Origin: Candidatus Zixiibacteriota bacterium
GTDB lineage: Bacteria; Zixibacteria; MSB-5A5; UBA10806
Reading direction: 5' to 3'
DNA: 64,000 nucleotides
Assembly (NCBI GenBank): GCA_020348065.1
Contig: CP070742.1
Coordinates: 2,696,094-2,760,093, forward strand
The first letter of the stretch is position 1, and every line of letters starts with the position of its first letter. Below are positions 5,615 through 23,462 of this stretch, piece by piece. Below the pieces are notes generated by a model, which worked only from the letters and a program-made list of their open reading frames with translations, was not told the origin of the DNA and made no database searches. A program made the position numbers and the translations under genes.

Positions 5615-6202
5615 TCACTCGGTTAAATCGATAAATTCATAGCCTTCAGGCAAATCCTCGAAGAATTTGTCGAATTTTGACGGCTTTTTCAGCTTTTCTT
5701 TTTTGAAAAGCATGGTTACCTCGTCCCCTTTAGAGTCAAGATACTGAATCTTACGTATCCTGTTTTTGCCATCGGATATTAATAGCAGGCTTTCCGGAAG
5801 AACACTTCCCAGGCTCTTCAGTTTAAACATAGAATAATCGCCGTTTATACGATGTTCGGCGATGGCATAATTATCATCCCAATTCAAGATGAAATTATAA
5901 GGCATCACGCTGCCATCAGTGGCCTTTTTCTGTATCTGTTTGTGCCTTTTCGACATAACCCAGATGGTATCTCCTATGCCGGCGATCTTTTCGAGTTCGC
6001 TGGAAATTAAGAATGTATCGGGCGGAAAGAAATTGAAGTCAATTAGCGTGGTGTCATGCTCTTCAAAAATCTCCGAATAAACCACCGACTCTATTTTCCA
6101 TTGTATGCCCTCGGCCGATGAATAATGCCGGGAGATTTCATCCAGAAGTTCCACATCGGTAGAACTCAACAATATTAACGACATCAGGAGATTCCGAATC
6201 AT
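5615..6202 (-). CDS. LolA-like outer-membrane lipoprotein carrier / lipoprotein-sorting fold protein
   Basis: 195 aa with an N-terminal signal-like segment. It sits immediately downstream of ftsK and overlaps it (the conserved ftsK-lolA gene pair). Sequence similarity to LolA itself is weak. Confidence 0.45.
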   Translation of the reverse strand: MIRNLLMSLILLSSTDVELLDEISRHYSSAEGIQWKIESVVYSEIFEEHDTTLIDFNFFPPDTFLISSELEKIAGIGDTIWVMSKRHKQIQKKATDGSVMPYNFILNWDDNYAIAEHRINGDYSMFKLKSLGSVLPESLLLISDGKNRIRKIQYLDSKGDEVTMLFKKEKLKKPSKFDKFFEDLPEGYEFIDLTE

Positions 6203-8454
6203 TTTTTGAACTCTTCCGATTCCAAATAGGATTCATTGACGAGAACTTCCCGGGCTTTGCTGCCGTCATAAGGTCCCACAATACCGCTATTTTCCAGCTG
6301 GTCTATCAACCGAGCCGCTCTTTGGTATCCTATGCCGAGCCGCCGCTGCAGCAAAGACACCGAACCCTGTTTGTGCCTGACAACCAATTCCACCGCTTCC
6401 CTGTAAAGCGGGTCCGTGGAGGGATCAAAACCGGATACAGCACTGCCGGCGCTTTTTTCGAACGATTCTATCGGTTTAGTTCTATATTCCTGTTCACCGA
6501 TAAATTCGACAATCTGTTCGATTTCATCCCCCGATATAAAAGCGCCATGAATCCTGACAGGTTCGGGCAATCCCGGCCTGGAAAACAGCATATCGCCTCT
6601 ACCGAGAAGCTTTTCGGCGCCGTTGGTATCCAGGATGGTCCGGGAATCGACTTTCGTGGCGGTCTGGAAAGCGATGCGGGTAGAAAAATTGGCCTTTATG
6701 AGCCCGGTAATTACGTCGACCGAAGGCCTCTGGGTGGCCAGCACCAGATGTATACCGACAGCCCTGGCCATCTGAGCCAGGCGAGTTATCAATGATTCCA
6801 TCCGGCTCAAGCCGCTCATCATCATATCCGCCAGTTCATCAACAATAATAACTATAAAGGGCAGAATTTCCTTTTCCCGCTGGTTATAATCATTAATATT
6901 TCTCACGCCTGCCCGCGCCAGTCGCCGGTATCGATCCTCCATTTCAAGTACCGCGTCGCCCAGTAACTTTTCCGCGTCACGCACATCGGTAACTACAGGG
7001 CGTTCGAGATGCGGGAGACCGTCATAAACCGATAACTCTAAACGTTTGGGATCTATAAGAATAAAACGAAGGGCTTCGGGATGAAGATTATATATCAGGC
7101 TGTTGATTAAACAATTCAGGCAGACCGATTTTCCGGAACCGGTCGATCCCGCGATCAGAAGATGCGGCATGGAGGCGAGATCGACGGAAAACGGTTCGCC
7201 GCTGATAGTCAGACCCAATGCCAGCGGCAATGTCGCATCCGATTCCCTCATAGCAGGCGAAGATAAAATCTCTTTTAAATAAATTATTCTGGAGGTTCTA
7301 TTGGGGATCTCCACTCCCACGGCGGATTTCCCGGGAATGGGAGCCACGATCCTGATTCGCTCCGCCTGCATGGCCAGAGCAAGATCATCCGCCAGATTCG
7401 TGATCTGAGAGACCTTTATGCCGCTGGCGGGCTTGAATTCAAAGCGGGTTATAACCGGTCCCGGGAAAATATTCACCTCCCCGGAATCGATATCAATCCC
7501 GAAAGTAAGGAGAGTATGTCTCAGCGCTTCCGCCGTCCGGCGATAATCGGCCTTATCGGGCATTTTCAGTTCGGGTGGGGGATCGTTCAACAAATCTTCC
7601 GAAGGAAGATCATAACCGTCCTTTTTGGGCTTTTTACCGGAACGAAGGCCGATCATATTCCGATTGCCTTCCAGAATCGGTTCATCCTCGCCCGATGCCA
7701 TACCAACGGATTCCGGAGAAACTTCTTCTTTTTTGGCGGATGTTTTTTTCTTTTTGATTCTTATAACTCCGGAAAGAAAGCCGCGTTTTTCCTCTACGTC
7801 CGCTCCTGTATCTTTTTCACCGGCTAATCTGAGCCGTAACTTCGATTTCGCTGCGGAAAACAGGGCCCGGGGATAAGTAGATATAAATCTCGTCAGAAAT
7901 TCCGTCACCCTTTTGAATAAGGAGGGAATGACGAAAATAAGACCGGTAATAATCAATGAAATGGTCAGGGCGTATGAAAAAACAGTTCCGAACAAGGCCA
8001 GCAATGCCTTCGCTATAAAATGCCCTACGGCGCCGCCCGCATAAACACCGAGAACAGATCCGCTCTCTCTTCCGGACGGCAAAGACACAAATGTCATAAT
8101 CGCGAGAATAAAAGCCGTTGAAATATAGCTCCATCTTTTGATGGCGATGGTCGGCTTCCCGAAAAATCGATTGGCGCCCCAGACGATACAGCCGAAAGGT
8201 ATAAGCACCGCGAAATAACCAAAAATCACGTACAGCAAAAAGGATATGGCAGCGCCCACTATGCCGCCGCGATTATTGAGTCCTGAAAAGACAGGACCCA
8301 GATCGCCACCGTCGAATAACGCCCTGATCTTCGAATGGTCACTTTCAAAATCATAGGAGATCAAACTTATAATAAGGAGTAACGCGAATGCGCAAAGAAG
8401 CAATCCCAGTATCTTATCCCGGTTATCTTTCTCGAGTTCTTTTAAGAGCTTCAT
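6199..8454 (-). CDS. ftsK: DNA translocase FtsK
   Basis: 751 aa. It has N-terminal TM helices, a linker, a RecA-like motor with Walker A (GSTGSGKS), and a C-terminal winged-helix gamma domain. Confidence 0.9.
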   Translation of the reverse strand: MKLLKELEKDNRDKILGLLLCAFALLLIISLISYDFESDHSKIRALFDGGDLGPVFSGLNNRGGIVGAAISFLLYVIFGYFAVLIPFGCIVWGANRFFGKPTIAIKRWSYISTAFILAIMTFVSLPSGRESGSVLGVYAGGAVGHFIAKALLALFGTVFSYALTISLIITGLIFVIPSLFKRVTEFLTRFISTYPRALFSAAKSKLRLRLAGEKDTGADVEEKRGFLSGVIRIKKKKTSAKKEEVSPESVGMASGEDEPILEGNRNMIGLRSGKKPKKDGYDLPSEDLLNDPPPELKMPDKADYRRTAEALRHTLLTFGIDIDSGEVNIFPGPVITRFEFKPASGIKVSQITNLADDLALAMQAERIRIVAPIPGKSAVGVEIPNRTSRIIYLKEILSSPAMRESDATLPLALGLTISGEPFSVDLASMPHLLIAGSTGSGKSVCLNCLINSLIYNLHPEALRFILIDPKRLELSVYDGLPHLERPVVTDVRDAEKLLGDAVLEMEDRYRRLARAGVRNINDYNQREKEILPFIVIIVDELADMMMSGLSRMESLITRLAQMARAVGIHLVLATQRPSVDVITGLIKANFSTRIAFQTATKVDSRTILDTNGAEKLLGRGDMLFSRPGLPEPVRIHGAFISGDEIEQIVEFIGEQEYRTKPIESFEKSAGSAVSGFDPSTDPLYREAVELVVRHKQGSVSLLQRRLGIGYQRAARLIDQLENSGIVGPYDGSKAREVLVNESYLESEEFKK

Positions 8455-8501: not shown

Positions 8502-11500
8502 TTAATTAAGTGACATAAAAACGTTTGCTCCCCATAAATTCGGTAGACCGTCGTAGTGACCGAAAATGTAAGATCTGGAGATACGATAGGAATTCCAGTA
8601 GCCTTTCCCATCCGCCAGGTTTCGAAGGAATCTCCAATAAAAGGCCGCTTTGATCTCATTCGACAGGTCCCACAGAGGATATATAAACCCGACATTACCG
8701 TCCCGCGCGCTCATGACTGCCTGTAATGCAAGATTTAGATAATTATCTTCGCTGAATGGTTTAACCGTGCAGGCGATATTTCGCTCTCCTTCGTGAGAAC
8801 CATCAAAGAACGAAAAATCCCCGGAGTAGAATCTTACTCTATTGCCGCTTGGCCCGGCAGGCTTTAACAGGGGTTCGGCTATATATTGGATTAAGCGGAC
8901 ATCGGGATCATAACCGGCCTCGAATTCCAGGAACACAGAAGTTCCTTCAAGCGGATCCTTTGGGAATTCCCGCGGCAGGTATATATGCCTTATCAAAATA
9001 AACATCTCCGACAGATAGTCTCCATCCGGCATTTTAAGCGTCTCAAAAGGAAAAGCAAACAGTATGCCATCAGGAATTACCAAAATTCTATCCTTTTCAT
9101 CCAGAAATCTCTCCACGGGAGAAATTATCTCACTGTACCATTTCTCCATGATCGAGTCGGCTTTTTGCTGGTCCGCCAGAAGATCATCCATCATCATAAG
9201 CGATTTACTCAGCTCGTCTTCTTTGAAGCCATACTTATGAATGAAAATCGAATCCTTATCTACATAGGCTGCCATAAAGCCGTTATCGGCCGAGTAAAAT
9301 CTTAGAACGGCCTCATCATCATTCAAATTGCCCTGAAGTTCCTCCACGGAATCCGGCCTTACCCCCCACAATACGCCGTAGGCCAAATTATTTTCCATAG
9401 ATTTAAACTCATTGTCCGTGTATTCTATGTAATCGCGCTCTTTTTCATTCATAAATATATGGTTTAGAATTATATTTTCAGTCGAATCGAAATTCCCGAC
9501 TGAAAAATGCCGTCCCGAGATCTTTTGCGAATAACCCGTCTCCAGATAATTCACCGCCGGACTGGCTCTCTCCTCGCTAATCCTAATTTCTGCAGCCATA
9601 TTATACAGATCGGATCTATCCTCCCATAATCCATGGGCGGCTTTTACATAATCCGGTTCAACAGGATATTCTCTAATTAACCGCTCGGCAGATTCCAGGT
9701 GATTTAATTTAATTTCCTTTTCGGCAATCAACGCCAGATTATAAAATGCCCTCCATTTGAGATATCCCAACGTATTTTTATCGATTGATTTAGAAATTTC
9801 CATAAAATAATTTCCGGCTTTTTTCTTATTGTCTTTTATGACAGCATGATACCCCAGCTGATAACGGCATAGATTCTTGACATATTCCGTTTTCGAATCC
9901 GAAATTATTGCATTATATAGAGAATCCATATCATTACTTCCATTTTCCGAAACCAGCTCTCTTTTATATCTCAGCAGATCCGAAGACTTCCGATATTCAT
10001 AATTACCTATAGCATCTTCCGCCAATCTGTAATCAATCAACGATTTTTCTTTGCGGCCCATAGCTCTATAAATATCGCCCAGCAATTCGTAAGTTTCCAT
10101 TACTATTAATGATTTTCCTCTACCCTTCAATAAGGAGAGACCTTTTTCCGCAGACTCCAGCGCCGATTCGAAATCTCCCCTCATTAAATATATTTTTCCG
10201 AGTAAAACAGCCGCTTCCGCGTTATTTTTATTTTCTTTTAACAATGATTCCAGATTCCGCCTGGCGGATTCGTTTCTAAATGTACCGATATGGTATCTTG
10301 AAAGTTGAATCAGGTACTCGCGATAAATATTATTTTCCCGATCTTTATCTATAAGAACCTCCAGCGAATCGAGCCGCATTTTCGATTTTCCGTACATCTC
10401 CATTAAATTGAATATTTCCGCCAGGTATAATCCCGACCACAATTTATCTTCTATATTATTGGCCGGGAATAGTTCCAGCGATTTTGATAAATCCGCCTGC
10501 GCTTTATCCAGTTCGCCTTTTTCCTTCAGAGCTTTTCCTCGAATGGCAAATCCCTTCGCTCTCATCAAGAAATCTTTCGTTTTTTCCGTTATTTCAATTA
10601 ACATCGTGGCGTAGTCTATGGAGTTTTCCAATTCGTTAATATCATATTTTATTTCCGCCATATCATAATAGATTTTTGCCAGCTGCAGCGAATCGCCCGT
10701 TTTTTCGAAAATCTCAATTAATTTTCCATGATCCCGCTGAATTCTGTAATTATATTCGCCGGTTTTTTCGTATGTTTTCATCAAATTACCGGCGGCGTGC
10801 GCTTTCATCTTACTATCGAACTTTCTGTTACTCACAATATTTAACGCCAGGCTGTAATACTTTTCAGCCATCGCCCAATTTTTCAAAATATAAAACTGGT
10901 TTCCGATCAATACGTATTCATTGAATAGATCTTTAACATGCAGGTCCTCCTCATTTTTGCTCCAGCCATCGTCTCCAAAATATGAAATAATATAACTGTT
11001 ATTATCATTGTTGACGATTGATCCCTGAATGAAAGCCCCGTAATAAGATCTTATTGGCGTACCCGCCTCCAGTCCGTCAAAGAATTTTTTTATATCCGAT
11101 TCCAATGCCGCAGGATCCAGAATATTTTCTATCCTGAGGACGGCATTCACCCCCATGTTTTCGATCAGTTTTATCAATATCGCGTTTTCCGATTCATCCG
11201 GCTCGTTCGCGGGATCAATCAAGATTGCGCCAAAAGCATTATTCTTAATTTTCGGCAGATTTCTTATGGCAAATTTATCCGACCTAATATTATCACCGTC
11301 TCCTCCAAAACGCTCCCAGCTTGAAAAAATAAAGTTTTTATCATCCACGACTAATTTTCCATCAAGAATAATCCAACCGTATTTTGAGAGATCGATTTCA
11401 TATGATGTCGAATCATAATTAATTATGTCCGCTCCAATTTCATCGGCCATTCCGTCCGTCAAAACAAAACCGTCGAATCTCAATATTGCAATCCCGGTTA

Positions 11501-14500
11501 CCTGTCTGATTCCGCTGATTCCCGTTTTATGAGCGTCGTTCAGGGAATATGCTCGTTTAATGATAATCTCCGGTGATTTTCTTAGAATTATATCCCTTAA
11601 TCTCTCATAAATATCGTTTGAGGAGATTATTGTTACGATATTAAAACCGGCTAAATCTTCGATAGATTCGAAGTTGTTAAAATCATCCGGATCATTTAGA
11701 AGCGACAGGTCCAGCGAATCATTTTTGCAAATCCAGAGCGCGATTTCATTTGAAATTTTAAAGGTAACAATATATATCTCGTCGTCGGGGATATCTTCGA
11801 TAAGGGATATTACGGACGGCGGATCAAAGACAAGAGAGGAATACGCCACCGGATCCAGTTCTTTTGTCTCCTGGCGTAATTCGAGTATCCTGCCCCTGAT
11901 TCTCAATATATTTTCGGTTACTTCCCGGAGCCTGATTTTTCCGGTAACTCCGATCGCCTCCAGTTTTTTCTTCTCCATATAAAGGTCGATCAGGTTTTTT
12001 TGATATTGTCGCAGCAAATTAAAGTTGGCCCTGAAGCGGTCCGATTTATATTTGACCGCGTTTATTTGATTCAATCGTGCCGCAAGGAGAAGGTTTTTCA
12101 TGCTTTCCAGGTAAAATAACCCGGAATATATATCGCCTTCATTTATATAATATTCGATAATTCTGGTATATACGGTTTCCAGTAAAGGGGTATCGATCAC
12201 CTGGCTTTTGCCTATCGGCATATTTTCATATAATCCAACCGCGTCCCTCAAAGACTCGATAAAACTATCATCGTCGTCCCTGCTAATTATCGCGTCGAGG
12301 GCCAGCAGCCTGGCGTACAAACTTGCGGATGTCGAAAAAACGGCCGATTTTTTCGCGCTTTTTATCGACGATCTTAAACCTTCAAAATCACCCAGAGAAT
12401 AAGACGCCACCGCGATATTCAATGAAAGTCCGGTTTCGATATCGGGATATTCCCCCGGAACGAGCTCCGCCAGGGCGTCCCTGAAATAATAGACCGCCCT
12501 TGAAAATCTTTCATGTATCCTGTCGGCGCCGCTATTCAAACCCGCCAGAAAACCCCGGACATCAGAATATTCATCATTCAGAACATTACCCGATTCAATC
12601 AATCCACGTATATACTGTGCAAGGCCGGCAATATTTTTCAGATTCGCCCGGGCGTTGGGATAGGACGGCAATATGTAATCATATAAATCCAGGGCTTTAT
12701 CCTCGATCTCATCCATCTGTTTTATAACCGCGGGATAATCCGATCCGGGATAACAATAAAATACGGCCTCCGCCCAATTTAGGAGTTCGATGTAGGCGCC
12801 GTGATAGTCTTCCAGATTCATGCATAGTTTATACGCTTTTTTATAGGACACCATAGATGAATCGAAATAACCGATTTCGAGATATTTGGCGCCGACGTTA
12901 TCCCATAAATCTACACTGTTTGCCTCTTCGTCCGAGTTTTCGAGAATTTCGATCTGCCTGTTTTTTAAGCTTATCCCGGAGATTATATCCCGGCCTTCAT
13001 GCGCCATCTCCAGAAGGAAAGCCTCGTCGGCCGCGCGGGTGAATCCTTTGGGATAAAGCGATCCCCCGAATCTCATGGGGAGAAGCTCGATGAGAGGTAT
13101 ATTTATGCCAAACGGCCACAAAATAAACTTAACCCTGTTATCATATTTTATTTCTTTATATTTGATTTTTTCGGACGATGTTAGCGCCTCGCCTGCGTAT
13201 ACCGATGCGGATTTATCATCTCCCGTCATCTTCAGACAAAACGCCTGTGCCTTTAATAAATCCATTAAAGTCTTACCGTCATTTCGGGCATTATAATATC
13301 TTTTGGCTGCTTCGTATAATTCGGCGGCCTCGATATATTTTCCCTGGAGCTGATTCAATAATCCCAATTTCAAAGCCGCAAAGGCCCTGGTCTCCGCATC
13401 GCCGGAATCGCTCGATTTTTCATAAAGCCTTTCGAAATATTCCTTTGCCGTCTCAATACTGTCGATATAAAGCGCGCTTTCGCCGTATTTCTTTATGAAC
13501 TTCAGATTATTTTCGAGCGCGATATTAATTTCTTTCGCCGCTTTATAATATTTAAACGCCTCGTTATATTGTGTCAATCCGAAATACGCCTCCCCCAGAT
13601 TCAGATAGAATCCATACGCCAGATCTTCATTTTTATTTATCAGGGAGATCCCCTTAAAGGAAGATTCCACCGCTTCTTCGTATAATCCCTGAGGCTCTTT
13701 TGAATTCTCCTCCAGCAAACAGTCGGCATATGAGATCGACAAATATGATAAAGGAAACGAGGGATATTTCTCAATAATCCTCGAGAGTTGCGCCCTGGCT
13801 TTTTTCAGGTCGGATATCTTATTATTATTCTCGAAATTCACTATATTTGTCAGGGCCTTCAGGTAGGCTATACCCGCTCCGGATAATGTATGAAAGACTA
13901 TATCATTTAAGCTTTTGTTGTTTTTAATACTATATCCGGCCGCCGCCAATCCCCAGATCGCATTGTAATTATTCGCGTTGCAGGTTAAGGCTTCTACAAA
14001 TAATTTCCGCGCTTCATCCGAGCTGTTTTTAAGCTTTTCGTATCCCGAAAAAGCGTAATATCCCGCCGCTTTAATTTTGAAGGATTCAACGGTTTTATAA
14101 TTATCTATAAAATCCAGATAGGCCGATGCGGAGTCGATCATGACCCCAGCCTTATCGTAAATATTACCGTCCATATAAAGGTCGAAAAGTTCATTGAACA
14201 CCGCGAATCTCAATCTCGGATTATCGAAATACCTTTCCGAAATCTCCTCCAATCTCCATTGGGCCAGCGATTTTCGCCCCTGCAGAGACAGTATCTTCGC
14301 CTGCTCCAGCGATGCCGATCCCGATAGAAGCGGATACGATTCATAATTGCTCCTTAATTCTTCGAGTTCATCCAGTACATTGCCGGAAGCCGCATCGATA
14401 AGAAGTGCAATCAGGTCATTTACCAGAATTTCGTTTATTTCGGTATTCAGCTCGTATTTTTCAATCAGTTCTATATATATAGGTATTAAATCGTTTATAT

Positions 14501-15923
14501 CTCCGGCATATGTACTTGCAAGATATTTCAGATCCCATCGCTCAAGTACCGCCAATATGTCTGCATCGTTATTAAATTCGCTTATGCCGTCATCGATCAG
14601 TCTTTTCCCGTCATCATACATCTTTTCGTTGAAATACAGGCTTATACAAAATTTATATGTTTCTTTTTTTAGGTTATCGGGCAGTCTTTCATCGCCCAAC
14701 AGGGTTTTACAGATATCGATCGCCTTATACTTCTCCCTCATATATTCCTTTTTACTGGATATCCCGTATCTTATTTTGGCTTCCGTCAACCGAATTTCAT
14801 ATTCGAATAATGAATCAGCGTAATAGCCCGGGTCCGCCAGAATGTCCAGCGCCAGGCCGCGATAGTTCAGTCCAGCATAAATTAATGCCGACCTTGTGAT
14901 AAGTTCTCTACAATTCTCCGGATAATAATTATAGGCCTCATAACATGCAATCCCCCCGATCAAGGAATCATTAAAAGTCAATGATTGCGTAACCAACGAG
15001 TCGCATAACGCATATTGGCTTTCGCCATCCGGTTCTTTTTCCGTCAATCCGCCCGGAGGGATTAGATAGATATTTCCATCGTCGCCCTGCGCCGCTATTA
15101 AATTATTCTTCGAGGCGTCGGGATTCGAAAATTCCAATCCCGGCAGCAATCTCCTTAATCTCATATCAGACAAGTTTAGAATCATTAAATCCGAATCGTC
15201 GCTTATAGTTACTCTTCCATCCTCGCTTGTATCTCTCGATTTTTTTTCAAATAGAATACGATCTCCTCCACCCAGAATAACCGGGTTAAGATGCAATCCG
15301 CCCCCTGTATCGAAAAATATGATCGATGAATCAATCAGACTGTAAACGGCAAGTTTGTTGGCGCCCCTCTCGTCTACCGGCGATACGAATATCAGGCTGT
15401 CGCCCGAGGGGAAAAATGACGGATCCAGTCCCCGGGGTCCCTTTCTTTTTTCATCTCTTTTAACATCATATATGTATATGAATACACTGTCATTCAGATC
15501 GCTGTAAACATAGGCGATCCGGCTTCCATCTCTCGCAGCTGCGGGAGAATCGTAATAACCTCCGCCGCCGATGATCGTTTCCTGTTTTTTTCCGTTTACA
15601 TCTGTTATAAAGATCTCCCCAAGGCTATTGTCACGTCTCGATACAAATAAAATCTTCGAATTTCCCCAAAATTCCGGGGAATAATCCGACGCCGAATGAA
15701 ATGTTATCTGTCGTTTCCGCCGGCTTTCGAGATCAAGCAGCCATATATTTTCATCTCCGTCTGATTCCGCGCAGTATGCAATATACCTGCCGTCGGGAGA
15801 TAATGAAGGATCATATTCCCTGTTTAACGACGATGATATATTTTGCGGAAGATTAAAATCGCGCGCGCTCAAATCTCCGGCTTGATTAATTAATAGAATG
15901 AAGATTAAAAGAAATCTATACAT
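8502..15923 (-). CDS. Giant secreted protein (2473 aa) with an N-terminal TolB-like PD40 beta-propeller, a very long TPR-like helical repeat region, and a C-terminal CHAT-like (caspase-fold) domain
   Basis: It has a signal peptide (MYRFLLIFILLINQAGDLSA). The N-terminus carries PD40 repeats (DGRYIAY..SDGDENIW; DGSRIAYVYSD). The middle is more than 1500 aa of TPR-like repeats. The C-terminus has ILVIPDGILFAFPFETL ... FIYPLWDLSNEIKAAFYWRFLRNLADGK, matching the CHAT core patterns (LVIVPDG.L..LPF..L ... SLW.V.D.....LM..FY..L). The catalytic His/Cys dyad is not confidently identifiable. Confidence 0.65.
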   Translation of the reverse strand: MYRFLLIFILLINQAGDLSARDFNLPQNISSSLNREYDPSLSPDGRYIAYCAESDGDENIWLLDLESRRKRQITFHSASDYSPEFWGNSKILFVSRRDNSLGEIFITDVNGKKQETIIGGGGYYDSPAAARDGSRIAYVYSDLNDSVFIYIYDVKRDEKRKGPRGLDPSFFPSGDSLIFVSPVDERGANKLAVYSLIDSSIIFFDTGGGLHLNPVILGGGDRILFEKKSRDTSEDGRVTISDDSDLMILNLSDMRLRRLLPGLEFSNPDASKNNLIAAQGDDGNIYLIPPGGLTEKEPDGESQYALCDSLVTQSLTFNDSLIGGIACYEAYNYYPENCRELITRSALIYAGLNYRGLALDILADPGYYADSLFEYEIRLTEAKIRYGISSKKEYMREKYKAIDICKTLLGDERLPDNLKKETYKFCISLYFNEKMYDDGKRLIDDGISEFNNDADILAVLERWDLKYLASTYAGDINDLIPIYIELIEKYELNTEINEILVNDLIALLIDAASGNVLDELEELRSNYESYPLLSGSASLEQAKILSLQGRKSLAQWRLEEISERYFDNPRLRFAVFNELFDLYMDGNIYDKAGVMIDSASAYLDFIDNYKTVESFKIKAAGYYAFSGYEKLKNSSDEARKLFVEALTCNANNYNAIWGLAAAGYSIKNNKSLNDIVFHTLSGAGIAYLKALTNIVNFENNNKISDLKKARAQLSRIIEKYPSFPLSYLSISYADCLLEENSKEPQGLYEEAVESSFKGISLINKNEDLAYGFYLNLGEAYFGLTQYNEAFKYYKAAKEINIALENNLKFIKKYGESALYIDSIETAKEYFERLYEKSSDSGDAETRAFAALKLGLLNQLQGKYIEAAELYEAAKRYYNARNDGKTLMDLLKAQAFCLKMTGDDKSASVYAGEALTSSEKIKYKEIKYDNRVKFILWPFGINIPLIELLPMRFGGSLYPKGFTRAADEAFLLEMAHEGRDIISGISLKNRQIEILENSDEEANSVDLWDNVGAKYLEIGYFDSSMVSYKKAYKLCMNLEDYHGAYIELLNWAEAVFYCYPGSDYPAVIKQMDEIEDKALDLYDYILPSYPNARANLKNIAGLAQYIRGLIESGNVLNDEYSDVRGFLAGLNSGADRIHERFSRAVYYFRDALAELVPGEYPDIETGLSLNIAVASYSLGDFEGLRSSIKSAKKSAVFSTSASLYARLLALDAIISRDDDDSFIESLRDAVGLYENMPIGKSQVIDTPLLETVYTRIIEYYINEGDIYSGLFYLESMKNLLLAARLNQINAVKYKSDRFRANFNLLRQYQKNLIDLYMEKKKLEAIGVTGKIRLREVTENILRIRGRILELRQETKELDPVAYSSLVFDPPSVISLIEDIPDDEIYIVTFKISNEIALWICKNDSLDLSLLNDPDDFNNFESIEDLAGFNIVTIISSNDIYERLRDIILRKSPEIIIKRAYSLNDAHKTGISGIRQVTGIAILRFDGFVLTDGMADEIGADIINYDSTSYEIDLSKYGWIILDGKLVVDDKNFIFSSWERFGGDGDNIRSDKFAIRNLPKIKNNAFGAILIDPANEPDESENAILIKLIENMGVNAVLRIENILDPAALESDIKKFFDGLEAGTPIRSYYGAFIQGSIVNNDNNSYIISYFGDDGWSKNEEDLHVKDLFNEYVLIGNQFYILKNWAMAEKYYSLALNIVSNRKFDSKMKAHAAGNLMKTYEKTGEYNYRIQRDHGKLIEIFEKTGDSLQLAKIYYDMAEIKYDINELENSIDYATMLIEITEKTKDFLMRAKGFAIRGKALKEKGELDKAQADLSKSLELFPANNIEDKLWSGLYLAEIFNLMEMYGKSKMRLDSLEVLIDKDRENNIYREYLIQLSRYHIGTFRNESARRNLESLLKENKNNAEAAVLLGKIYLMRGDFESALESAEKGLSLLKGRGKSLIVMETYELLGDIYRAMGRKEKSLIDYRLAEDAIGNYEYRKSSDLLRYKRELVSENGSNDMDSLYNAIISDSKTEYVKNLCRYQLGYHAVIKDNKKKAGNYFMEISKSIDKNTLGYLKWRAFYNLALIAEKEIKLNHLESAERLIREYPVEPDYVKAAHGLWEDRSDLYNMAAEIRISEERASPAVNYLETGYSQKISGRHFSVGNFDSTENIILNHIFMNEKERDYIEYTDNEFKSMENNLAYGVLWGVRPDSVEELQGNLNDDEAVLRFYSADNGFMAAYVDKDSIFIHKYGFKEDELSKSLMMMDDLLADQQKADSIMEKWYSEIISPVERFLDEKDRILVIPDGILFAFPFETLKMPDGDYLSEMFILIRHIYLPREFPKDPLEGTSVFLEFEAGYDPDVRLIQYIAEPLLKPAGPSGNRVRFYSGDFSFFDGSHEGERNIACTVKPFSEDNYLNLALQAVMSARDGNVGFIYPLWDLSNEIKAAFYWRFLRNLADGKGYWNSYRISRSYIFGHYDGLPNLWGANVFMSLN

Positions 15924-15926
15924 TAT

Positions 15927-16496
15927 CTATTTTACCGTCCAGTTGCCCTCATAATCTTCAATCCACGTTCCGTCCGGGGATAGCCTCGCCATCACCTGCG
16001 CGAATTCAATTCTCGCCCCCGATTTGTCTATCTCGTCCTCAATGCCCCTGGATTCAAAATAGAAGGCCAGGATTATCTCCCTGTCATTGTTTTCGGCCTC
16101 GACAATCTTGCCTATTTGATTTTCTGCGCCGACGCTGTCCGACATTATCACCATACGTCCATCATAGGACTCTCCTAACGCTCCCTGCCTTTTCAGTTCG
16201 TCAATATATCCGCTCATCGTTTTTCTTCTGATCTGGGCGAGCGTCAATCGTCTTTTGTTATATTCGTCTCTGTAACGAGTCAACAGTTCTTCATCCTCGC
16301 CTTCCCAGGAGTATTTTTCCAATGAGGCCCAGACGGCGATAGATGTCGAGGGATCGCTGGACACCCTGGCTTTTTCCCCGAACATCTGATTTTCCAGGGC
16401 GGTCTTGTCAGCGGTTATGTGAACCTCGGGCGGCTTAATGGTGCAGGCGCAAATTGCCGATAATATTATACCGAAAAACAGGTATGGCTTTACCAT
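15927..16496 (-). CDS. Periplasmic lipoprotein, hypothetical. Possible YnbE/YdbL-like partner of the AsmA-family protein.
   Basis: 189 aa with a lipobox (ILSAICAC). The start overlaps the AsmA-like gene by 7 nt, and the gene lies 3 nt upstream of the giant gene. The functional assignment comes only from the E. coli ydbH-ynbE-ydbL operon analogy. Confidence 0.4.
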   Translation of the reverse strand: MVKPYLFFGIILSAICACTIKPPEVHITADKTALENQMFGEKARVSSDPSTSIAVWASLEKYSWEGEDEELLTRYRDEYNKRRLTLAQIRRKTMSGYIDELKRQGALGESYDGRMVIMSDSVGAENQIGKIVEAENNDREIILAFYFESRGIEDEIDKSGARIEFAQVMARLSPDGTWIEDYEGNWTVK

Positions 16497-19400
16497 GATT
16501 CCTCCCTTAAGTTGGCCAGCAACGATTTCACCGGTATACGTCCGTACTCAACCGGCATGGGAACCCGCACCAGCGGCAGGACATCGGCAAAAAAAGGCTG
16601 GTCCATAAATAAACGGGGATAAAGTGTCCAGTGCTTGAGTTCAAAAGAAAAATTCTTTGGTTTATAGCTCATGTCTATAAATCCCAGCAGTTTTCTGTTT
16701 AAAAGTTCTTTCGTCTGCATGATACCGGGATTCGAATTCTCCGGGTCCAGAACATCCAGTACTCTGATAGCCACGCCCGGCCCCATTTTCGTTATATGAA
16801 AGGAACCGGATATCGTATAATCCTCATCCGGGGCGATTATGCCGCTTCCCCGGAAATGCGCGTCGGCGCCAAAATCCGCCCGCTGCTCGAAAGGTCCCAG
16901 GCCATATATCAACTGGTTAAAATCGAGATTAGATAATTCCAGGTCTAATCTATAACTCATCGCTTCGTAATTTGGAATTTCACGCATCAAATTAACATTT
17001 CTCAAGTCCGCTCGCAACAAACCGTAAAAATTCCCACCCAGAAGTTCTCCTGTCAAATAAGGAATATCGAAAACGCCGTCTCTGAATCCCGCGTCTATGT
17101 TAATATCGAAAATATAGAACGGATCGGCCTCTATGCGTCCTATTTTCAAACGGCCGTATTCTCGCGCGAGCATATTCGCTAACCTTGCTCTCTGGTAACC
17201 CGAACCGGATATTTCTTTTATGTCTCCCCCCGCCACAAACATCGAATCCCGCAGATTGATTTTTCCCGAAAACGGGATATCTCCATTTACATCGCCGCAT
17301 TTGAAAATACCCCGGGATTCGATTTCCACGTCGCTGAAATCGGCTAAGCCGGAGTATTCCAGCGATGTGTCAATACTGCCGGCTTTGATCTCGGCTTTCA
17401 ATTTTCCTTTGACATAAAGCTGATTTCCGACTTCAACGGGCTCGTCAGAATCAAACGTGAGATACAACGTCAAATTCGAAAACGGGGATCCCCCGGCATA
17501 ACCGAAATCCCCCATCAGGTCCAGTCGCGACTTTAAGGACGGGATTTTCGCGCTCATATTCGTTATGCGCCATGTAGTGTCCGAGAGGGAGACTACTTCT
17601 CCTTCAATGGTGATACCGGAAAAATCAAGCTCGGAATAATTCTCGTTGAATAAATCCTCTATGCCGGAATTCGAAAATAACGATACGCCTCTTTCGGTGA
17701 TCTCCAATTCCGATACGCTTATAAGGCTGTACAGCACGCTTTGAAAGTTATCGATTAAAATATCTGTGGGCTCGATTGTAAGTTTTGAGGAACCCGTAAA
17801 CACGAAAGTATCAACGGGGCTCGAAAATCTCCCGTCTATGACGCTGCCTCCGCTGAGTTCCACAGCTCCGAGCGCCTCCAGAGCAGCCGACGGAAGATAT
17901 GACGGCAATATCGAATTATCGAGGTTCATTTTATAGTACATGATTATGCTGTCAAGAGGGGTCGATTTTAAGGGATATAGAAATTCACCTTCACCGGAAA
18001 TGCTTTTTTGAACCTCATAAGCGAACCTGGAATTAACGGACTCTTTATCTATGACCGTCGAGGCGGAAAAATTAAAATCCTGTCGAGGGATAAAAAGGGA
18101 ATCCTCTTCGAGCCTGATATTGAGATTTTCCAGGGTGGCCGACAAATTCGACTGAAGGGAATCTGTGCGGCCGGATACCTTCAGCGCCATGTCAAAAAGC
18201 CCGCTGAAATCGATATCCTCGCCCGTTAAAAAGGTAGAGACCGCCTTAGATAGATTGACATTTTCAACTCTAAGATCGCCGTCTATTTTCGAACTCTCGG
18301 TGAACGCGAAAATATCAAATTCTCCGCCAAAAAAATCGGCTATACCGGTGGTTATATTGAAATAGACATCTGTGCTCGATATCTCGGCTTCCACGGCCGA
18401 CGATAATTTATATAATCCGAACAACCGCTCGAAATCTGACCCGCCGGAGATCGAATCGGCCGTCAGGGAACTTCCGAATACAACCAGCCCGGGCTCGCCG
18501 CCGGAATATATCGAGCCGTTCACCCCCCCCAGGAAAATCATGTTATCATAATCGATCCCCACGTCATTAATGTCCATCGTAAAATCGTATGAAGAATAAG
18601 AGGATGATCCTGATATTGATAAATCTTCAATTGATATACTCCCCGTCAAAAGCAAGGGGATTTTGAAATCTTCTAAAAGCGGGTTCAGAGCGCCGATGTC
18701 CCAGCTTTTCCTTCTCGCCCGTAAAGATAATTCGGGCTTCTCATTCAATCTCAGCTCCCCTGTAAATCCCAGAATCTCTTCTTCATTGAGTTCGAATGTT
18801 AAATCATCTACCGCAACGAGTTTTTCGCCGAATTTCGAAATCGTATTTAAATTCATACTGAAATCATCCACAAATAGCGATTCCCCCGCAAAAAACCTGA
18901 TATCGGATAAACCTGCTTTAAAATCCTGAGACGTATTTTCCGAGGATGATAACACGCCGGCGGCCGAAATATCGCAGGTTCCAGCCAACGAGAAATCTTC
19001 GGAATAATAATGAATCAATCCTTTATTGGTATTCAGAGAGTAAGTCGCCGAAAAATTATCCGTCGCCAAAAACGATATTCGTGACATGATTAGATCGAAT
19101 TTCAGCTCGGCCTCCGGTCCCGATATCACTAAATTCGCAAGCTCGAAGCGATCCATAATAAAATCGAACGGCAATTTTGTTTCCTCCGGGGGCGCTTCGC
19201 TCTCCGCCGAAACCTCTCGAAAATCGGGAAAATGAATATAGTTGACAAATAAATTTGTAATTATCAAATCAGACACATGAAGATCGCCCGTCACAAGTTC
19301 CAGGGGGTCGAGATCTGCCCGGATATCAGCGATCCTGAGCCAGATGGAATCGCTTTTTTCATTTCTCAATTCCAGATCCTTGAGTTCGATTTTGATAAAG

Positions 19401-19579
19401 CCGCGAATATCCAGAGAACCTATAGTTACGTAGCCGCCGATATTTTCTTTTATGGTATCGGCGATGAGGTTTTTTATCCGGCCGTCGTTAAAATAAATTC
19501 GAAGACCTATCAGCGTTATAACGGCCAGTACGGTTAAAGACACCAAACAAAAAAATATTATTTTAAAAACGCGCCCCAT
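16490..19579 (-). CDS. AsmA-family (TamB/YdbH-like) inner-membrane-anchored envelope lipid-transport protein
   Basis: 1029 aa. It has a single N-terminal TM helix (IIFFCLVSLTVLAVITLIGL) followed by a long beta-rich periplasmic region typical of AsmA-like proteins. It is followed by a small lipoprotein gene. Confidence 0.55.
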   Translation of the reverse strand: MGRVFKIIFFCLVSLTVLAVITLIGLRIYFNDGRIKNLIADTIKENIGGYVTIGSLDIRGFIKIELKDLELRNEKSDSIWLRIADIRADLDPLELVTGDLHVSDLIITNLFVNYIHFPDFREVSAESEAPPEETKLPFDFIMDRFELANLVISGPEAELKFDLIMSRISFLATDNFSATYSLNTNKGLIHYYSEDFSLAGTCDISAAGVLSSSENTSQDFKAGLSDIRFFAGESLFVDDFSMNLNTISKFGEKLVAVDDLTFELNEEEILGFTGELRLNEKPELSLRARRKSWDIGALNPLLEDFKIPLLLTGSISIEDLSISGSSSYSSYDFTMDINDVGIDYDNMIFLGGVNGSIYSGGEPGLVVFGSSLTADSISGGSDFERLFGLYKLSSAVEAEISSTDVYFNITTGIADFFGGEFDIFAFTESSKIDGDLRVENVNLSKAVSTFLTGEDIDFSGLFDMALKVSGRTDSLQSNLSATLENLNIRLEEDSLFIPRQDFNFSASTVIDKESVNSRFAYEVQKSISGEGEFLYPLKSTPLDSIIMYYKMNLDNSILPSYLPSAALEALGAVELSGGSVIDGRFSSPVDTFVFTGSSKLTIEPTDILIDNFQSVLYSLISVSELEITERGVSLFSNSGIEDLFNENYSELDFSGITIEGEVVSLSDTTWRITNMSAKIPSLKSRLDLMGDFGYAGGSPFSNLTLYLTFDSDEPVEVGNQLYVKGKLKAEIKAGSIDTSLEYSGLADFSDVEIESRGIFKCGDVNGDIPFSGKINLRDSMFVAGGDIKEISGSGYQRARLANMLAREYGRLKIGRIEADPFYIFDINIDAGFRDGVFDIPYLTGELLGGNFYGLLRADLRNVNLMREIPNYEAMSYRLDLELSNLDFNQLIYGLGPFEQRADFGADAHFRGSGIIAPDEDYTISGSFHITKMGPGVAIRVLDVLDPENSNPGIMQTKELLNRKLLGFIDMSYKPKNFSFELKHWTLYPRLFMDQPFFADVLPLVRVPMPVEYGRIPVKSLLANLREESW

Positions 19580-19612
19580 AGAGGGAATTTATTCCTTTAA
19601 AACTATGGCTGT

Positions 19613-19645
19613 CCACAAAAAAAAGCCCCGTTATACGGGGCAGAA
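19613..19645 (-). terminator. Rho-independent terminator downstream of hup
   Basis: On the minus strand: stem GCCCCG / loop / CGGGGC, followed by a run of 8 T (the A-run at 19617-19624 on the plus strand). It sits about 20 nt after the hup stop. Confidence 0.55.
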
Positions 19646-19663: not shown

Positions 19664-19936
19664 TTAGTTCAGCGCTTCCTTAAATGCTTTGCCGGCCTTA
19701 AACTTAGGCACTTTGGACGCGGCAATTTGAATCTCCTCGCCGGTTTGAGGATTCCTTCCTGTCCGGGCTTTTCTGTTGGAAATGTCAAACGTCCCGAACC
19801 CGGATACGCTGACTTTGTTTCCCTGCTGCAAACTCATGACTATGCCGTCAAATAGAGACTTCACTGCTTTGGTGGCCTGGGATTTGGTGATGCCGACTTC
19901 CTCAACCACTTTTTCAATCATCTGATCTTTGTTCAT
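19664..19936 (-). CDS. hup: HU-family DNA-binding protein
   Basis: 90 aa. It matches the HU/IHF consensus, with GFGTF..R.AR.GRNP.TGE.I.I in the arm. Confidence 0.9.
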   Translation of the reverse strand: MNKDQMIEKVVEEVGITKSQATKAVKSLFDGIVMSLQQGNKVSVSGFGTFDISNRKARTGRNPQTGEEIQIAASKVPKFKAGKAFKEALN

Positions 19937-23372: not shown

Positions 23373-23462
23373 AATGCATTTTATATCCTATGGAGGTTGA
23401 TTTAGCAATTGAAAAAGGGCCGGAATCCGGCCCTCATTCTACTAAACGAAGATATCGCCAGT

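What the first reader, a model, noticed from the sequence alone, without database searches (positions are those of the whole stretch)
8502..15923. 2473-aa secreted TolB-propeller / mega-TPR / CHAT-like protein inside an envelope-biogenesis operon
The largest gene in the window encodes a signal-peptide protein. It combines an N-terminal PD40 (TolB-like) beta-propeller, more than 1500 residues of TPR-like repeats, and at least one C-terminal CHAT-like caspase-fold module. That module has the ILVIPDG..FAFPFETL and ...PLWDLSNE..AAFYWRF.. cores. A second CHAT-like core may lie around residues 1480-1700 (IYIVTFKIS..LWICK ... AFGAILIDPA). CHAT proteases usually act as cytoplasmic signalling or defence effectors, and a periplasmic, TolB-headed version is unusual. 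The gene lies 3 nt after a lipoprotein gene that overlaps an AsmA/YdbH-like gene, and 47 nt before ftsK-lolA, so it is probably co-transcribed with envelope lipid-transport and division genes. It could be a periplasmic scaffold or regulated protease that couples the Tol-Pal/division machinery to envelope assembly. The His/Cys dyad is not cleanly recognisable, so it may be a pseudo-protease scaffold.
Basis: partly seen in the sequence, partly recalled or inferred. Interest (0 to 1): 0.75.

Follow-up and report, generated by a model that had tools for sequence, protein, structure and literature searches.

The report
Giant exported PD40-TPR double pseudo-CHAT protein
The largest gene in the window encodes a 2473-residue exported protein with a TolB-like propeller, long helical repeats and two caspase-like (CHAT) modules that have both lost the catalytic histidine; in several bacterial lineages it sits in a three-gene cluster with an AsmA-like lipid-bridge gene and a YdbL-like lipoprotein gene, which suggests an undescribed accessory factor of outer-membrane lipid transport.

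Summary

- **Architecture:** signal peptide, PD40/TolB-type propeller, helical/TPR region, a first CHAT-fold module (aa ~1362-1672, not 1480-1700), TPRs, and a C-terminal CHAT-fold module (aa 2185-2473).
- **Catalysis:** neither module keeps the His-Cys dyad, yet all regions have dN/dS of about 0.2. It is a conserved pseudo-protease.
- **Family:** it is the dead-dyad branch of giant exported PD40-TPR-CHAT-TPR-CHAT proteins. Most of these keep a canonical dyad in the last CHAT.
- **Gene linkage:** an AsmA/DUF748-like gene lies within 5 kb in 12 of 15 giant loci, including a Spirochaetota one. Searching outward from the neighbouring long DUF1318 (YdbL-like) lipoprotein finds a giant directly downstream in 15 of 17 informative metagenome loci.
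- **ftsK-lolA:** this adjacency is confined to the Zixibacteria-type clade.

The best reading is a non-catalytic periplasmic adaptor of an AsmA-like bridge. The architecture and the linkage are shown; the mechanism is inferred. I found no paper describing this cluster.

The parts
8502..15923 (-). Giant ORF, 2473 aa. It is 100% identical to P0001, named 'PD40 domain-containing protein' in a Candidatus Zixiibacteriota MAG.
15864..15923 (-). Signal-peptide-like N-terminus (aa 1-20, MYRFLLIFILLINQAGDLSA). It has no lipobox.
   Evidence: Read from the sequence. Comparable N-termini occur in P0002, P0004, P0020, P0022 and P0026. No predictor was run.
14934..15851 (-). PD40 (TolB/Tricorn-type) beta-propeller, aa ~25-330.
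   Evidence: Pfam PD40 42 bits. TIGR02800 E 5.9e-19. TolB PDB chains down to E 7e-11. Precomputed Tricorn_N and Tricorn_2nd hits on orthologues.
12024..14933 (-). Helical/TPR-like region A, aa 331-1300. TPR motifs are detectable only around aa 773-920.
   Evidence: The rest is inferred, not verified.
10908..11840 (-). Internal pseudo-CHAT module, aa 1362-1672. It has no His or Cys at the dyad positions (YGWIILDGK aligns with xxHxxxHG; NAFGAILID aligns with LVxLSAC).
   Evidence: hhalign 95%, E 3.8e-8, against the internal CHAT of remote giants. AF2 pLDDT 81. Foldseek top hits are TPR-CHAT/Csx29, SAVED-CHAT and separase, E 2.7e-6. Alignment.
9384..10883 (-). TPR region B, aa 1681-2180. Pfam TPR_12, TPR_2 and TPR_1 pass their cut-offs at aa ~1790-1970.
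8505..9371 (-). C-terminal pseudo-CHAT module, aa 2185-2473. His is replaced (SGD, D2369). C2385 is retained but not invariant in the family. The His-strand to Cys-strand segment is shortened to about 15 residues.
15927..16496 (-). Long DUF1318 (YdbL-like) lipoprotein, 189 aa. The motif C-T-IKPPEVHIT-x-DKTALE follows the lipobox Cys. It is the conserved middle gene of the trio.
   Evidence: Pfam DUF1318 34.3 bits against a cut-off of 27. 23.5% identity to E. coli YdbL over aa 89-189, E 1e-4. Alignment A4. tblastn to remote loci.
16490..19579 (-). AsmA/DUF748-like protein, 1029 aa, the first gene of the trio.
   Evidence: Weak Pfam DUF748 and AsmA hits at the N-terminus. Full-length tblastn match to the L018 protein, which carries AsmA, DUF748 and YhdP hits.
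19586..19641 (-). Terminator-like hairpin (19641-19625) after the HU gene, followed by a promoter-like site (19615-19586) in front of the AsmA-like gene. This is the likely start of the transcription unit.
   Evidence: consensus scan only
6199..8454 (-). ftsK, 47 nt downstream. No terminator-like site lies in between. The adjacency is specific to this lineage.
   Evidence: synteny
5615..6202 (-). 195-aa ORF, weakly LolA-like.
   Evidence: NCBIfam lolA E 0.0011, 18 bits. The L014 orthologue has a weak Pfam LolA hit.

Best explanation
The gene encodes a Sec-exported protein of about 280 kDa. Its parts, in order, are an N-terminal PD40 beta-propeller, about 1000 residues of helical/TPR repeats, an internal CHAT-fold module, a second TPR block and a C-terminal CHAT-fold module. 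The overall plan resembles separase and Csx29 (helical repeats followed by a CHAT module).

Both CHAT modules lack the catalytic His, so the protein is a pseudo-protease. It is the last gene of a three-gene module that recurs in several lineages: an AsmA/DUF748-like bridge-type lipid-transfer protein, a long DUF1318 (YdbL-like) lipoprotein, and the giant.

The most likely role is a non-catalytic periplasmic adaptor or scaffold. Its propeller, TPR and dead-CHAT surfaces would bind a component of the AsmA-like intermembrane bridge rather than cleave it. The most plausible partner is the DUF1318 lipoprotein or the outer-membrane-proximal end of the AsmA-like protein. Binding would control bridge assembly or stoichiometry. 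In sister lineages the same position is held by versions with an intact His-Cys dyad, which probably act as dedicated periplasmic proteases.

Shown here: the architecture, the CHAT folds, the loss of the dyad, purifying selection and the gene linkage. Inferred: periplasmic location, binding partners and effect on lipid transport.
For: Architecture.

Internal CHAT: hhalign 95%, E 3.8e-8 to the internal CHAT of remote giants, which is itself 100% related to their C-terminal CHAT. AF2 pLDDT 81 and Foldseek CHAT hits.

Dyad loss: no His at the aligned position in any of 17 family members, and Cys in 13 of 17. By contrast, 17 of 27 remote giants match strict patterns for both the His and the Cys motif in the last CHAT, 21 match the His pattern, and none matches in the internal CHAT.

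Selection: dN/dS is 0.21-0.29 in every region against the 84% orthologue. The C-terminal module is among the most conserved parts of the protein.

Linkage, starting from the giant: an AsmA-like gene lies within 5 kb in 12 of 15 loci. The exact AsmA-like/DUF1318/giant order occurs in the Zixibacteria-type clade, in a Spirochaetota MAG (L005), in L016 (giant with intact dyad) and in L018. The window's AsmA-like and DUF1318 proteins match the proteins in those remote loci directly.

Linkage, starting from the lipoprotein: a DNA pattern for the DUF1318 lipoprotein motif retrieved 28 metagenome loci. In 15 of the 17 with at least 250 nt downstream, a giant N-terminus follows directly. An AsmA-like gene lies upstream in 23 of 28.

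Operon signals: gene overlaps and gaps of 7 and 3 nt, with a terminator and promoter pair ahead of the AsmA-like gene.

Biological plausibility: in E. coli, YdbL dosage must be balanced for YdbH-YnbE bridge function, and free YdbL is degraded by DegP (PMC11126948; bioRxiv 10.64898/2026.03.16.712125).
Against: - No direct evidence of any physical interaction, localisation or phenotype.
- Two giant loci have no AsmA-like gene nearby (L007, L017). Three have FecR plus an AsmA-like gene downstream and no DUF1318 gene (L003, L006, L008).
- One DUF1318 locus clearly lacks a giant within 2.7 kb (L031).
- The metagenome loci are not phylogenetically independent, and the motif search samples only one DUF1318 subfamily.
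- The window's AsmA-like protein has only weak Pfam hits and no significant blastp match to E. coli YdbH.
- The signal peptide was judged by eye.
- C2385 is retained in most family members, so residual or non-canonical chemistry is not strictly excluded.
- The AF2 alignment for the internal module included remote CHAT sequences, which may bias the model toward that fold.
Confidence: 0.5

Rival explanations
1. It is still an active cysteine protease that uses C2385 with a non-canonical partner, for example the conserved acidic residue D/E2369 or a residue supplied by another subunit, as proposed for the incomplete DdvA site.
For: In the model, C2385 sits at the end of the strand that directly precedes the helix matching the post-Cys helix of CHAT domains. 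It is kept in 13 of 17 members. Close relatives keep D/E at the His position. DdvA is a precedent for an incomplete CHAT site thought to be completed in trans (PMC11506125).
Against: Four family members replace the Cys with W, L, I or S. The His position varies across the family (D, E, G, R, A and others). The segment between the His and Cys strands is cut to about 15 residues. hhalign aligns the canonical Cys loop to a gap. The internal module has neither residue.
Confidence: 0.1
2. This is the first reader's model: a TolB-headed periplasmic scaffold that couples Tol-Pal and cell division (ftsK) to envelope assembly.
For: The propeller's best sequence matches are TolB propellers. ftsK follows 47 nt downstream with no terminator-like site, and this order is kept across Zixibacteria-type genomes even where the giant is only 28-31% identical.
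Against: ftsK is not next to the giant in any locus outside that clade (L003, L005, L006, L007, L008, L016, L017, L018). The TolB equivalog score is 68 bits against a cut-off of 343, and only the propeller part of TolB is matched. PD40 propellers are common in many unrelated exported proteins (P0006, P0010, P0012-14).
Confidence: 0.08
3. It is a generic periplasmic protein-interaction hub or quality-control factor for outer-membrane biogenesis. Its adjacency to AsmA-like/DUF1318 genes would reflect co-regulation of envelope genes, not a dedicated partnership.
For: The window cluster also holds lptD, bamD, an SLT transglycosylase gene and a lolA-like gene. TPR and PD40 domains are general interaction modules. 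Some giants lack an AsmA-like neighbour.
Against: The three-gene order recurs where the other envelope genes do not (L005, L016). Starting from the lipoprotein motif recovers the giant in 15 of 17 informative loci. That is tighter than expected for loose co-regulation.
Confidence: 0.2
4. It is a signalling or defence-type CHAT sensor, like DdvA, Craspase or SAVED-CHAT. A periplasmic TPR-CHAT would sense a cue and pass it to a regulator.
For: The closest solved folds are Csx29, SAVED-CHAT and DdvA. In remote loci, FecR-domain proteins, a response-regulator/SpoIIE phosphatase and a TIR response regulator lie nearby.
Against: Only a weak TPR hit (E 0.004) in PADLOC, and none for either neighbour. 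There is no transmembrane or anti-sigma domain, and no sigma factor, CRISPR or CBASS genes in the window cluster. The dyad is lost in this clade. The neighbourhood is housekeeping envelope biogenesis and is syntenic across the clade.
Confidence: 0.07

Closest known systems
Csx29 / TPR-CHAT of type III-E CRISPR 'Craspase' (e.g. PDB 8eey_B, 7y9x_B)
   Different: Csx29 is cytoplasmic, about 700 aa, has a single CHAT with an active His-Cys dyad, and works with Cas7-11. The window protein is exported, 2473 aa, carries a PD40 propeller and two CHAT modules, has no dyad and has no CRISPR context.
Separase (e.g. PDB 5u1t_A, 7nj0_A)
   Different: Separase is eukaryotic and cytoplasmic or nuclear, and it keeps an active protease domain. 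Here two separate CHAT modules are split by about 500 residues of TPR, and both are dead in this clade. The relatives with an intact last CHAT would be the closer analogues.
DdvA anti-sigma factor of Myxococcus xanthus (PDB 8rot, 8rw5; PMC11506125)
   Different: DdvA is a single-pass membrane protein with a cytoplasmic sigma-binding domain. It keeps His862 and Cys907 and regulates a defence island. The window protein has no transmembrane or anti-sigma part, no His, and an envelope-biogenesis context.
TolB (Tol-Pal system; TIGR02800; PDB 7mx5_A)
   Same: PD40-repeat beta-propeller in an exported protein. TolB gives the best sequence matches for aa 27-189.
   Different: The score is far below the TolB equivalog cut-off (68 against 343 bits). 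Only propeller positions 228-390 of the TolB model are matched, and the TolB N-terminal domain is not. The protein is six times longer.
E. coli ydbH-ynbE-ydbL operon (AsmA-like bridge, OM lipoprotein, DUF1318 modulator; PMC11126948; bioRxiv 10.64898/2026.03.16.712125)
   Same: An AsmA-like gene is followed by a gene for a DUF1318 protein. The window DUF1318 domain aligns with YdbL. As in YnbE, the lipobox Cys is followed by a short beta-strand-like motif.
   Different: No separate YnbE gene is present. DUF1318 is itself a lipoprotein with a 90-residue N-terminal extension. A third, giant gene is attached, which E. coli lacks. The AsmA-like protein is not demonstrably a YdbH orthologue.

Membership tests
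CHAT domain (Pfam PF12770) | Score at or above the Pfam gathering cut-off (24 bits) | tested here: not met
   18.1 bits on the whole protein and 23.9 bits on the isolated C-terminus. Only profile positions 7-55 are matched. The internal module has no hit.
CHAT domain (Pfam PF12770) | Homology to CHAT domains over the whole module by profile-profile comparison | tested here: met
   C-terminal module: 99.7%, E 5e-27, 275 columns. Internal module: 95%, E 3.8e-8 against the internal CHAT of remote giants, and 66%, E 5.6e-5 against canonical CHAT.
CHAT domain (Pfam PF12770) | Caspase/separase-type fold | tested here: met
CHAT domain (Pfam PF12770) | Catalytic His-Cys dyad | tested here: not met
   His is absent at the aligned position in 17 of 17 family members. 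Cys is present in 13 of 17 in the C-terminal module. Neither residue is present in the internal module. A 3D superposition of side chains was not possible with these tools.
TolB (Tol-Pal system) | NCBIfam equivalog cut-off for TIGR02800 (343 bits) and presence of the TolB N-terminal domain | tested here: not met
   68.3 bits. Only model positions 228-390 (propeller) are matched.
PD40 beta-propeller repeat (PF07676) | Pfam gathering cut-off (20.9 bits) | tested here: met
   29 bits on the whole protein and 42 bits on aa 1-330. The number of blades was not determined.
TPR repeats | Pfam gathering cut-offs for TPR models | tested here: met
   TPR_12 61.1 bits (cut-off 30.1), TPR_2 46.8 (27), TPR_1 35.1 (27.8). 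These cover only part of the helical regions.
Giant exported PD40-TPR-CHAT-TPR-CHAT proteins (unnamed family defined here) | Collinear architecture: N-terminal PD40, an internal dead CHAT at about aa 1350-1800, a C-terminal CHAT, and 2400-2850 aa in total | tested here: met
   Collinear BLAST segments to P0005, P0007, P0008 and P0011. A profile of the internal CHAT also detects a second, C-terminal CHAT in nearly all of 30 giants, with very weak scores in P0009 and P0052. Alignment.
YdbH-YnbE-YdbL-type AsmA-like bridge operon (neighbouring genes) | AsmA-like protein, DUF1318 protein and YnbE lipoprotein encoded together | tested here: inconclusive
   DUF1318 is met (34.3 bits against 27; aligns with YdbL). 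The AsmA-like assignment rests on weak N-terminal Pfam hits plus a full-length match to an AsmA/DUF748/YhdP protein in L018. No YnbE homologue was detected, only a short YnbE-like motif after the lipobox.
Anti-phage CHAT systems (Craspase, SAVED-CHAT/CBASS, DdvA regulon) | Match to defence-system models, or defence genes in the neighbourhood | tested here: not met
   PADLOC gives only a weak TPR hit (E 0.004) and nothing for the neighbours. The neighbours are lptD, HU, ftsK, a lolA-like gene, a radical-SAM gene, an SLT gene and bamD.

The most novel reading that the evidence does not exclude
The AsmA-like gene, the long DUF1318 lipoprotein gene and the giant PD40-TPR-CHAT gene form a previously undescribed envelope module found in several lineages. 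In it, a giant periplasmic caspase-like protease controls assembly or turnover of a bridge-type lipid transporter. Zixibacteria carry a pseudo-protease version. This would be a dedicated counterpart of the YdbL/DegP balance that tunes the YdbH-YnbE bridge in E. coli.
Probability: 0.3. Interest if true: 0.8.

Novelty: new variant of a known kind. Interest (0 to 1): 0.62.

Why it matters
How Gram-negative bacteria move phospholipids to the outer membrane, and how AsmA-like bridges (YhdP, TamB, YdbH) are assembled and regulated, are open questions. Known accessory factors are small (YnbE, YdbL) or are beta-barrels (TamA).

A 280-kDa exported caspase-fold protein that is genetically tied to an AsmA-like/DUF1318 pair in Zixibacteria, Spirochaetota and other uncultured lineages would be a new class of partner. 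It has apparently active and dead versions, and it gives a concrete, testable hypothesis: proteolytic or stoichiometric control of bridge formation.

It also adds a large exported family to the short list of periplasmic CHAT proteins. Like separase and Csx29, these proteins place a long helical array in front of the CHAT module.

Tried and rejected
- **Word-indexed protein searches.** The search with the C-terminal alignment A1 returned only one extra fragment. The search with the internal-module alignment A3 returned nothing at E <= 1e-8. The second search was wasted, so I could not obtain source names to map the phyla of the remote giants. The listing of cluster members gave no taxonomy either.
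- **PDB sequence search.** A search with A1 gave only chance-level hits.
- **Locus scans.** A1 found only five genome loci.
- **Internal module with few sequences.** With only four close sequences, the internal module was not significantly related to CHAT (E 0.06-0.12). It became significant only with nine family members.
- **Placement of the Cys.** hhalign places the canonical Cys loop in a gap. My reading of the AF2 secondary structure (strand 198-202, then helix 208-223) places C2385 at the canonical strand end. I could not superpose coordinates to settle this.
- **The apparent exception L002.** This locus (P0003) has an N-truncated giant and broken upstream synteny. The cause is a run of 100 N directly upstream, and homology runs right up to that gap. 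I treat the locus as uninformative upstream rather than as a counter-example.
- **AsmA-like protein against E. coli YdbH.** blastp and phmmer were not significant, so I do not call it YdbH.
- **Literature.** Searches for CHAT+PD40+TPR, AsmA-like+CHAT and DUF1318 found nothing relevant.
Full report
**1. Observation**

ORF 8502..15923 on the minus strand is the largest in the window, at 2473 aa with an ATG start. It begins 3 nt after the stop of ORF 15927..16496. That ORF overlaps ORF 16490..19579 by 7 nt. The giant ends 47 nt before ORF 6199..8454.

Pfam identifies the neighbours, all on the minus strand:
- LptD (20028-23372)
- HU (19664-19936)
- an AsmA/DUF748-like protein (16490-19579; weak N-terminal hits)
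- a DUF1318 protein (15927-16496)
- FtsK (6199-8454)
- a radical-SAM methylthiotransferase-like protein, an SLT transglycosylase and BamD/YfiO

The 195-aa ORF after ftsK is only weakly LolA-like. The protein is 100% identical to a 'PD40 domain-containing protein' of a Candidatus Zixiibacteriota MAG. That record starts 17 residues later and so lacks the signal peptide.

**2. Domain anatomy**

The N-terminus MYRFLLIFILLINQAGDLSA|RD looks like a cleavable signal peptide without a lipobox. Comparable N-termini occur in homologues that are only 28-41% identical. This was judged by eye.

Residues ~25-330 are a PD40 propeller:
- Pfam PD40 scores 42 bits on the isolated segment.
- The TolB propeller model TIGR02800 gives E 5.9e-19, but 68 bits against an equivalog cut-off of 343.
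- TolB chains are the best PDB sequence matches, E 7e-11.

It is therefore TolB-like in fold class but is not TolB.

Pfam TPR models pass their cut-offs only around aa 1790-1970 and are marginal at 773-920. Several 250-residue segments have no hit or only a weak one.

**3. The C-terminal module (aa 2185-2473) is a CHAT fold without a dyad**

Pfam CHAT is just sub-threshold (18.1 and 23.9 bits against 24) and covers only the first strand region.

An exhaustive profile search of 1.84 billion representatives found 15 proteins matching all 289 positions. It also found about 1400 CHAT proteins that match only positions ~3-130.

A 17-sequence family profile aligns to a 24-sequence canonical CHAT profile with 99.7% probability, E 5e-27, over 275 columns.

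AlphaFold2 on the 17-sequence alignment gave pLDDT 86 and pTM 0.87. Structural matches are:

In the family alignment, the position aligned with the catalytic His is D, E, G, R, A and others, and never His. C2385 lies at the end of the strand that precedes the post-Cys helix, but it is W, L, I or S in 4 of 17 members. The His-strand to Cys-strand spacer is about 15 residues, compared with about 45 in canonical CHAT.

**4. The internal module (aa ~1362-1672) is also a dead CHAT**

With nine family members, the module aligns to the internal CHAT of remote giants at 95%, E 3.8e-8, over 342 columns. It aligns to canonical CHAT at 66%, E 5.6e-5. The remote internal CHAT is itself 100% related to their C-terminal CHAT.

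AF2 gave pLDDT 81. The best Foldseek hits are again TPR-CHAT/Csx29, SAVED-CHAT and separase, at E 2.7e-6.

The aligned dyad positions are YGWIILDGK for xxHxxxHG and NAFGAILID for LVxLSAC. Neither His nor Cys is present.

**5. Family context**

The closest full-length relatives (84%, 65%, 41%, then 28-31% identity) form a small clade of Zixibacteria-type MAGs.

More distantly, at least 27 cluster representatives of 2600-2840 aa share the same collinear plan. Strict sequence patterns for their last CHAT give:
- both the xHxSCHG and the LSACET motif in 17 of 27
- the His motif in 21 of 27
- neither motif in 6 of 27, including the Spirochaetota protein P0009

None of their internal CHATs matches either pattern.

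The window protein therefore belongs to a branch that lost the dyad in a family most of whose members look like active exported proteases.

It is not decaying. dN/dS against the 84% orthologue is 0.21-0.29 in every region, including both dead modules. The C-terminal module is among the most conserved parts.

**6. Gene context is the main new result**

Starting from the giant, the context of 15 loci was as follows.

| Locus group | Arrangement |
|---|---|
| Zixibacteria-type: window, L009, L001, L012, L014, L015 | (LptD-HU-)AsmA-like, DUF1318, giant, (FtsK-LolA-like-rSAM-SLT-x-BamD; contig ends after the giant in L009) |
| L002 (P0003) | Appears broken upstream, but this is an assembly gap of 100 N |
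| L005 (Spirochaetota) | AsmA-like, DUF1318, giant |
| L016 (giant with intact dyad) | AsmA-like, DUF1318, 43-aa ORF, giant |
| L018 | LptD, HU, AsmA-like, DUF1318, giant |
| L003, L006, L008 | Giant, then small toxin-antitoxin-like ORFs, then a FecR-domain gene and an AsmA-like gene |
| L007, L017 | No AsmA-like gene nearby |

In total, 12 of 15 giant loci have an AsmA-like gene within 5 kb. ftsK follows the giant only in the Zixibacteria-type clade.

tblastn shows that the window's AsmA-like and DUF1318 proteins are homologous to those at the remote loci. The DUF1318 match covers nearly its full length.

The reciprocal test started from the lipoprotein. The long DUF1318 lipoproteins share the motif C-[TS]-IK[PA]PEV-x-[IV]T-x-EKT right after the lipobox Cys in seven of the eight sequences aligned. 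A degenerate DNA pattern for this motif retrieved 28 metagenome loci. Results:
- Of the 17 loci with at least 250 nt beyond the DUF1318 gene, 15 continue directly into a giant N-terminus.
- L031 is a clear exception, and L042 is ambiguous.
- 23 of 28 loci have an AsmA-like gene upstream.

Caveats: these loci are not phylogenetically independent, and the motif samples only one DUF1318 subfamily.

In the window, a strong terminator-like hairpin follows the HU gene (19641-19625). A promoter-like site precedes the AsmA-like gene. No terminator-like site separates the giant from ftsK (consensus scans only).

**7. Mechanism**

Shown:
- an exported-looking giant with a propeller, TPRs and two dead CHAT folds
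- purifying selection on all regions
- tight gene linkage, in several lineages, to an AsmA-like gene and a YdbL-like lipoprotein gene

Inferred:
- The giant is periplasmic.
- It binds a component of the AsmA-like bridge, most plausibly the DUF1318 lipoprotein or the conserved C-terminal end of the AsmA-like protein.
- It acts as a non-catalytic adaptor or scaffold.
- Its dyad-intact relatives act as dedicated proteases.

Published work on E. coli makes this plausible. YdbL dosage must be balanced for YdbH-YnbE bridge function, and free YdbL is removed by DegP (PMC11126948; bioRxiv 10.64898/2026.03.16.712125).

I put about 0.9 on the architecture and pseudo-protease status, about 0.65 on a functional link to the AsmA-like system, and about 0.25 on the specific adaptor mechanism.

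**8. Comparison with known systems**

The folds and the helical-array-plus-CHAT logic match Csx29 and separase. A periplasmic TPR-CHAT has one solved precedent, DdvA (PMC11506125).

The protein fails the CHAT dyad test and narrowly misses the Pfam cut-off. It fails the TolB equivalog test. PADLOC gives only a weak TPR hit and no defence-system match.

The neighbouring pair resembles ydbH-ynbE-ydbL, but it has a lipidated, extended DUF1318 protein and no detectable YnbE.

Literature searches found no description of PD40-TPR-CHAT giants or of a CHAT/AsmA-like association. The searchable library is limited, so this is not proof that none exists.

**9. Verdict**

The architecture, the pseudo-protease status and the AsmA-like link hold. 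The Tol-Pal, division and ftsK coupling does not.

The protein itself is a new variant (double dead CHAT, exported, propeller-headed) of a known kind. The conserved three-gene module is the part that could be new biology. Interest is 0.62.

Noticed in passing
window 15872-15923: The public annotation of this protein (P0001, 2456 aa) starts 17 codons downstream of the ATG used here, so it lacks the signal-peptide-like N-terminus. Homologues P0002, P0004, P0020, P0022 and P0026 keep the longer start.
   Followed up: partly
L002 9759-9858 (CP070813.1, 'complete' Zixibacteria MAG chromosome): A run of 100 N lies directly upstream of the orthologue P0003. Homology to the window protein continues right up to the gap. 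The N-terminal truncation (183 aa missing) and the broken upstream synteny (kinase genes) are probably a scaffolding artefact.
   Followed up: yes
window 15927-16496; alignment A4: The DUF1318 protein is a lipoprotein with a ~90-residue N-terminal extension. Seven of the eight aligned sequences share the motif C-[TS]-IK[PA]PEV-x-[IV]T-x-EKTALE right after the lipobox Cys. The motif loosely resembles the start of mature E. coli YnbE (CTPRIEVAAPKEPITI). It could be a fused YnbE-like strand plus a YdbL domain.
   Followed up: partly
L003 18706-19737, L006 18413-18950, L008 9874-11758: In the loci where a FecR-domain gene and an AsmA-like gene lie downstream of the giant, small toxin-antitoxin-like ORFs (PemK, PIN, DUF4926/DUF6883) are inserted between the giant and the FecR gene.
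   Followed up: no
L003 6169-9200; L004 301-3332; L017 17946-18932: TIR-domain proteins (a response-regulator-TIR fusion next to a GAF histidine kinase) lie near some remote giants. A response-regulator/SpoIIE phosphatase and a FecR-domain gene follow the Spirochaetota giant (L005 17911-20195).
   Followed up: no
remote giants P0005, P0007, P0008, P0030, P0036 and others: Across the wider family, the internal CHAT never matches the dyad patterns while the last CHAT usually does. This is a fixed dead-plus-active CHAT tandem separated by a TPR block.
   Followed up: partly
window 19625-19641 and 23415-23435 (minus strand): Two strong terminator-like hairpins with T-runs bracket the lptD-HU pair. 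This suggests lptD-hup is a separate transcription unit from the AsmA-like/DUF1318/giant genes.
   Followed up: no
window 23463-26255; L001 1-2407; L014 1-2336; L015 1-2380: A ~930-aa ORF lies upstream of lptD. Its positional counterparts in L001, L014 and L015 carry beta-propeller and T9SS-tail (Por_Secre_tail) hits. The window ORF itself was not scanned.
   Followed up: no
L011 / L001 (CAZKYQ010000001.1): The MAG that carries the 41%-identical orthologue P0004 is titled 'uncultured Ignavibacteria bacterium', although its gene order here matches the Zixibacteria loci exactly. The label may reflect binning or classification differences.
   Followed up: no
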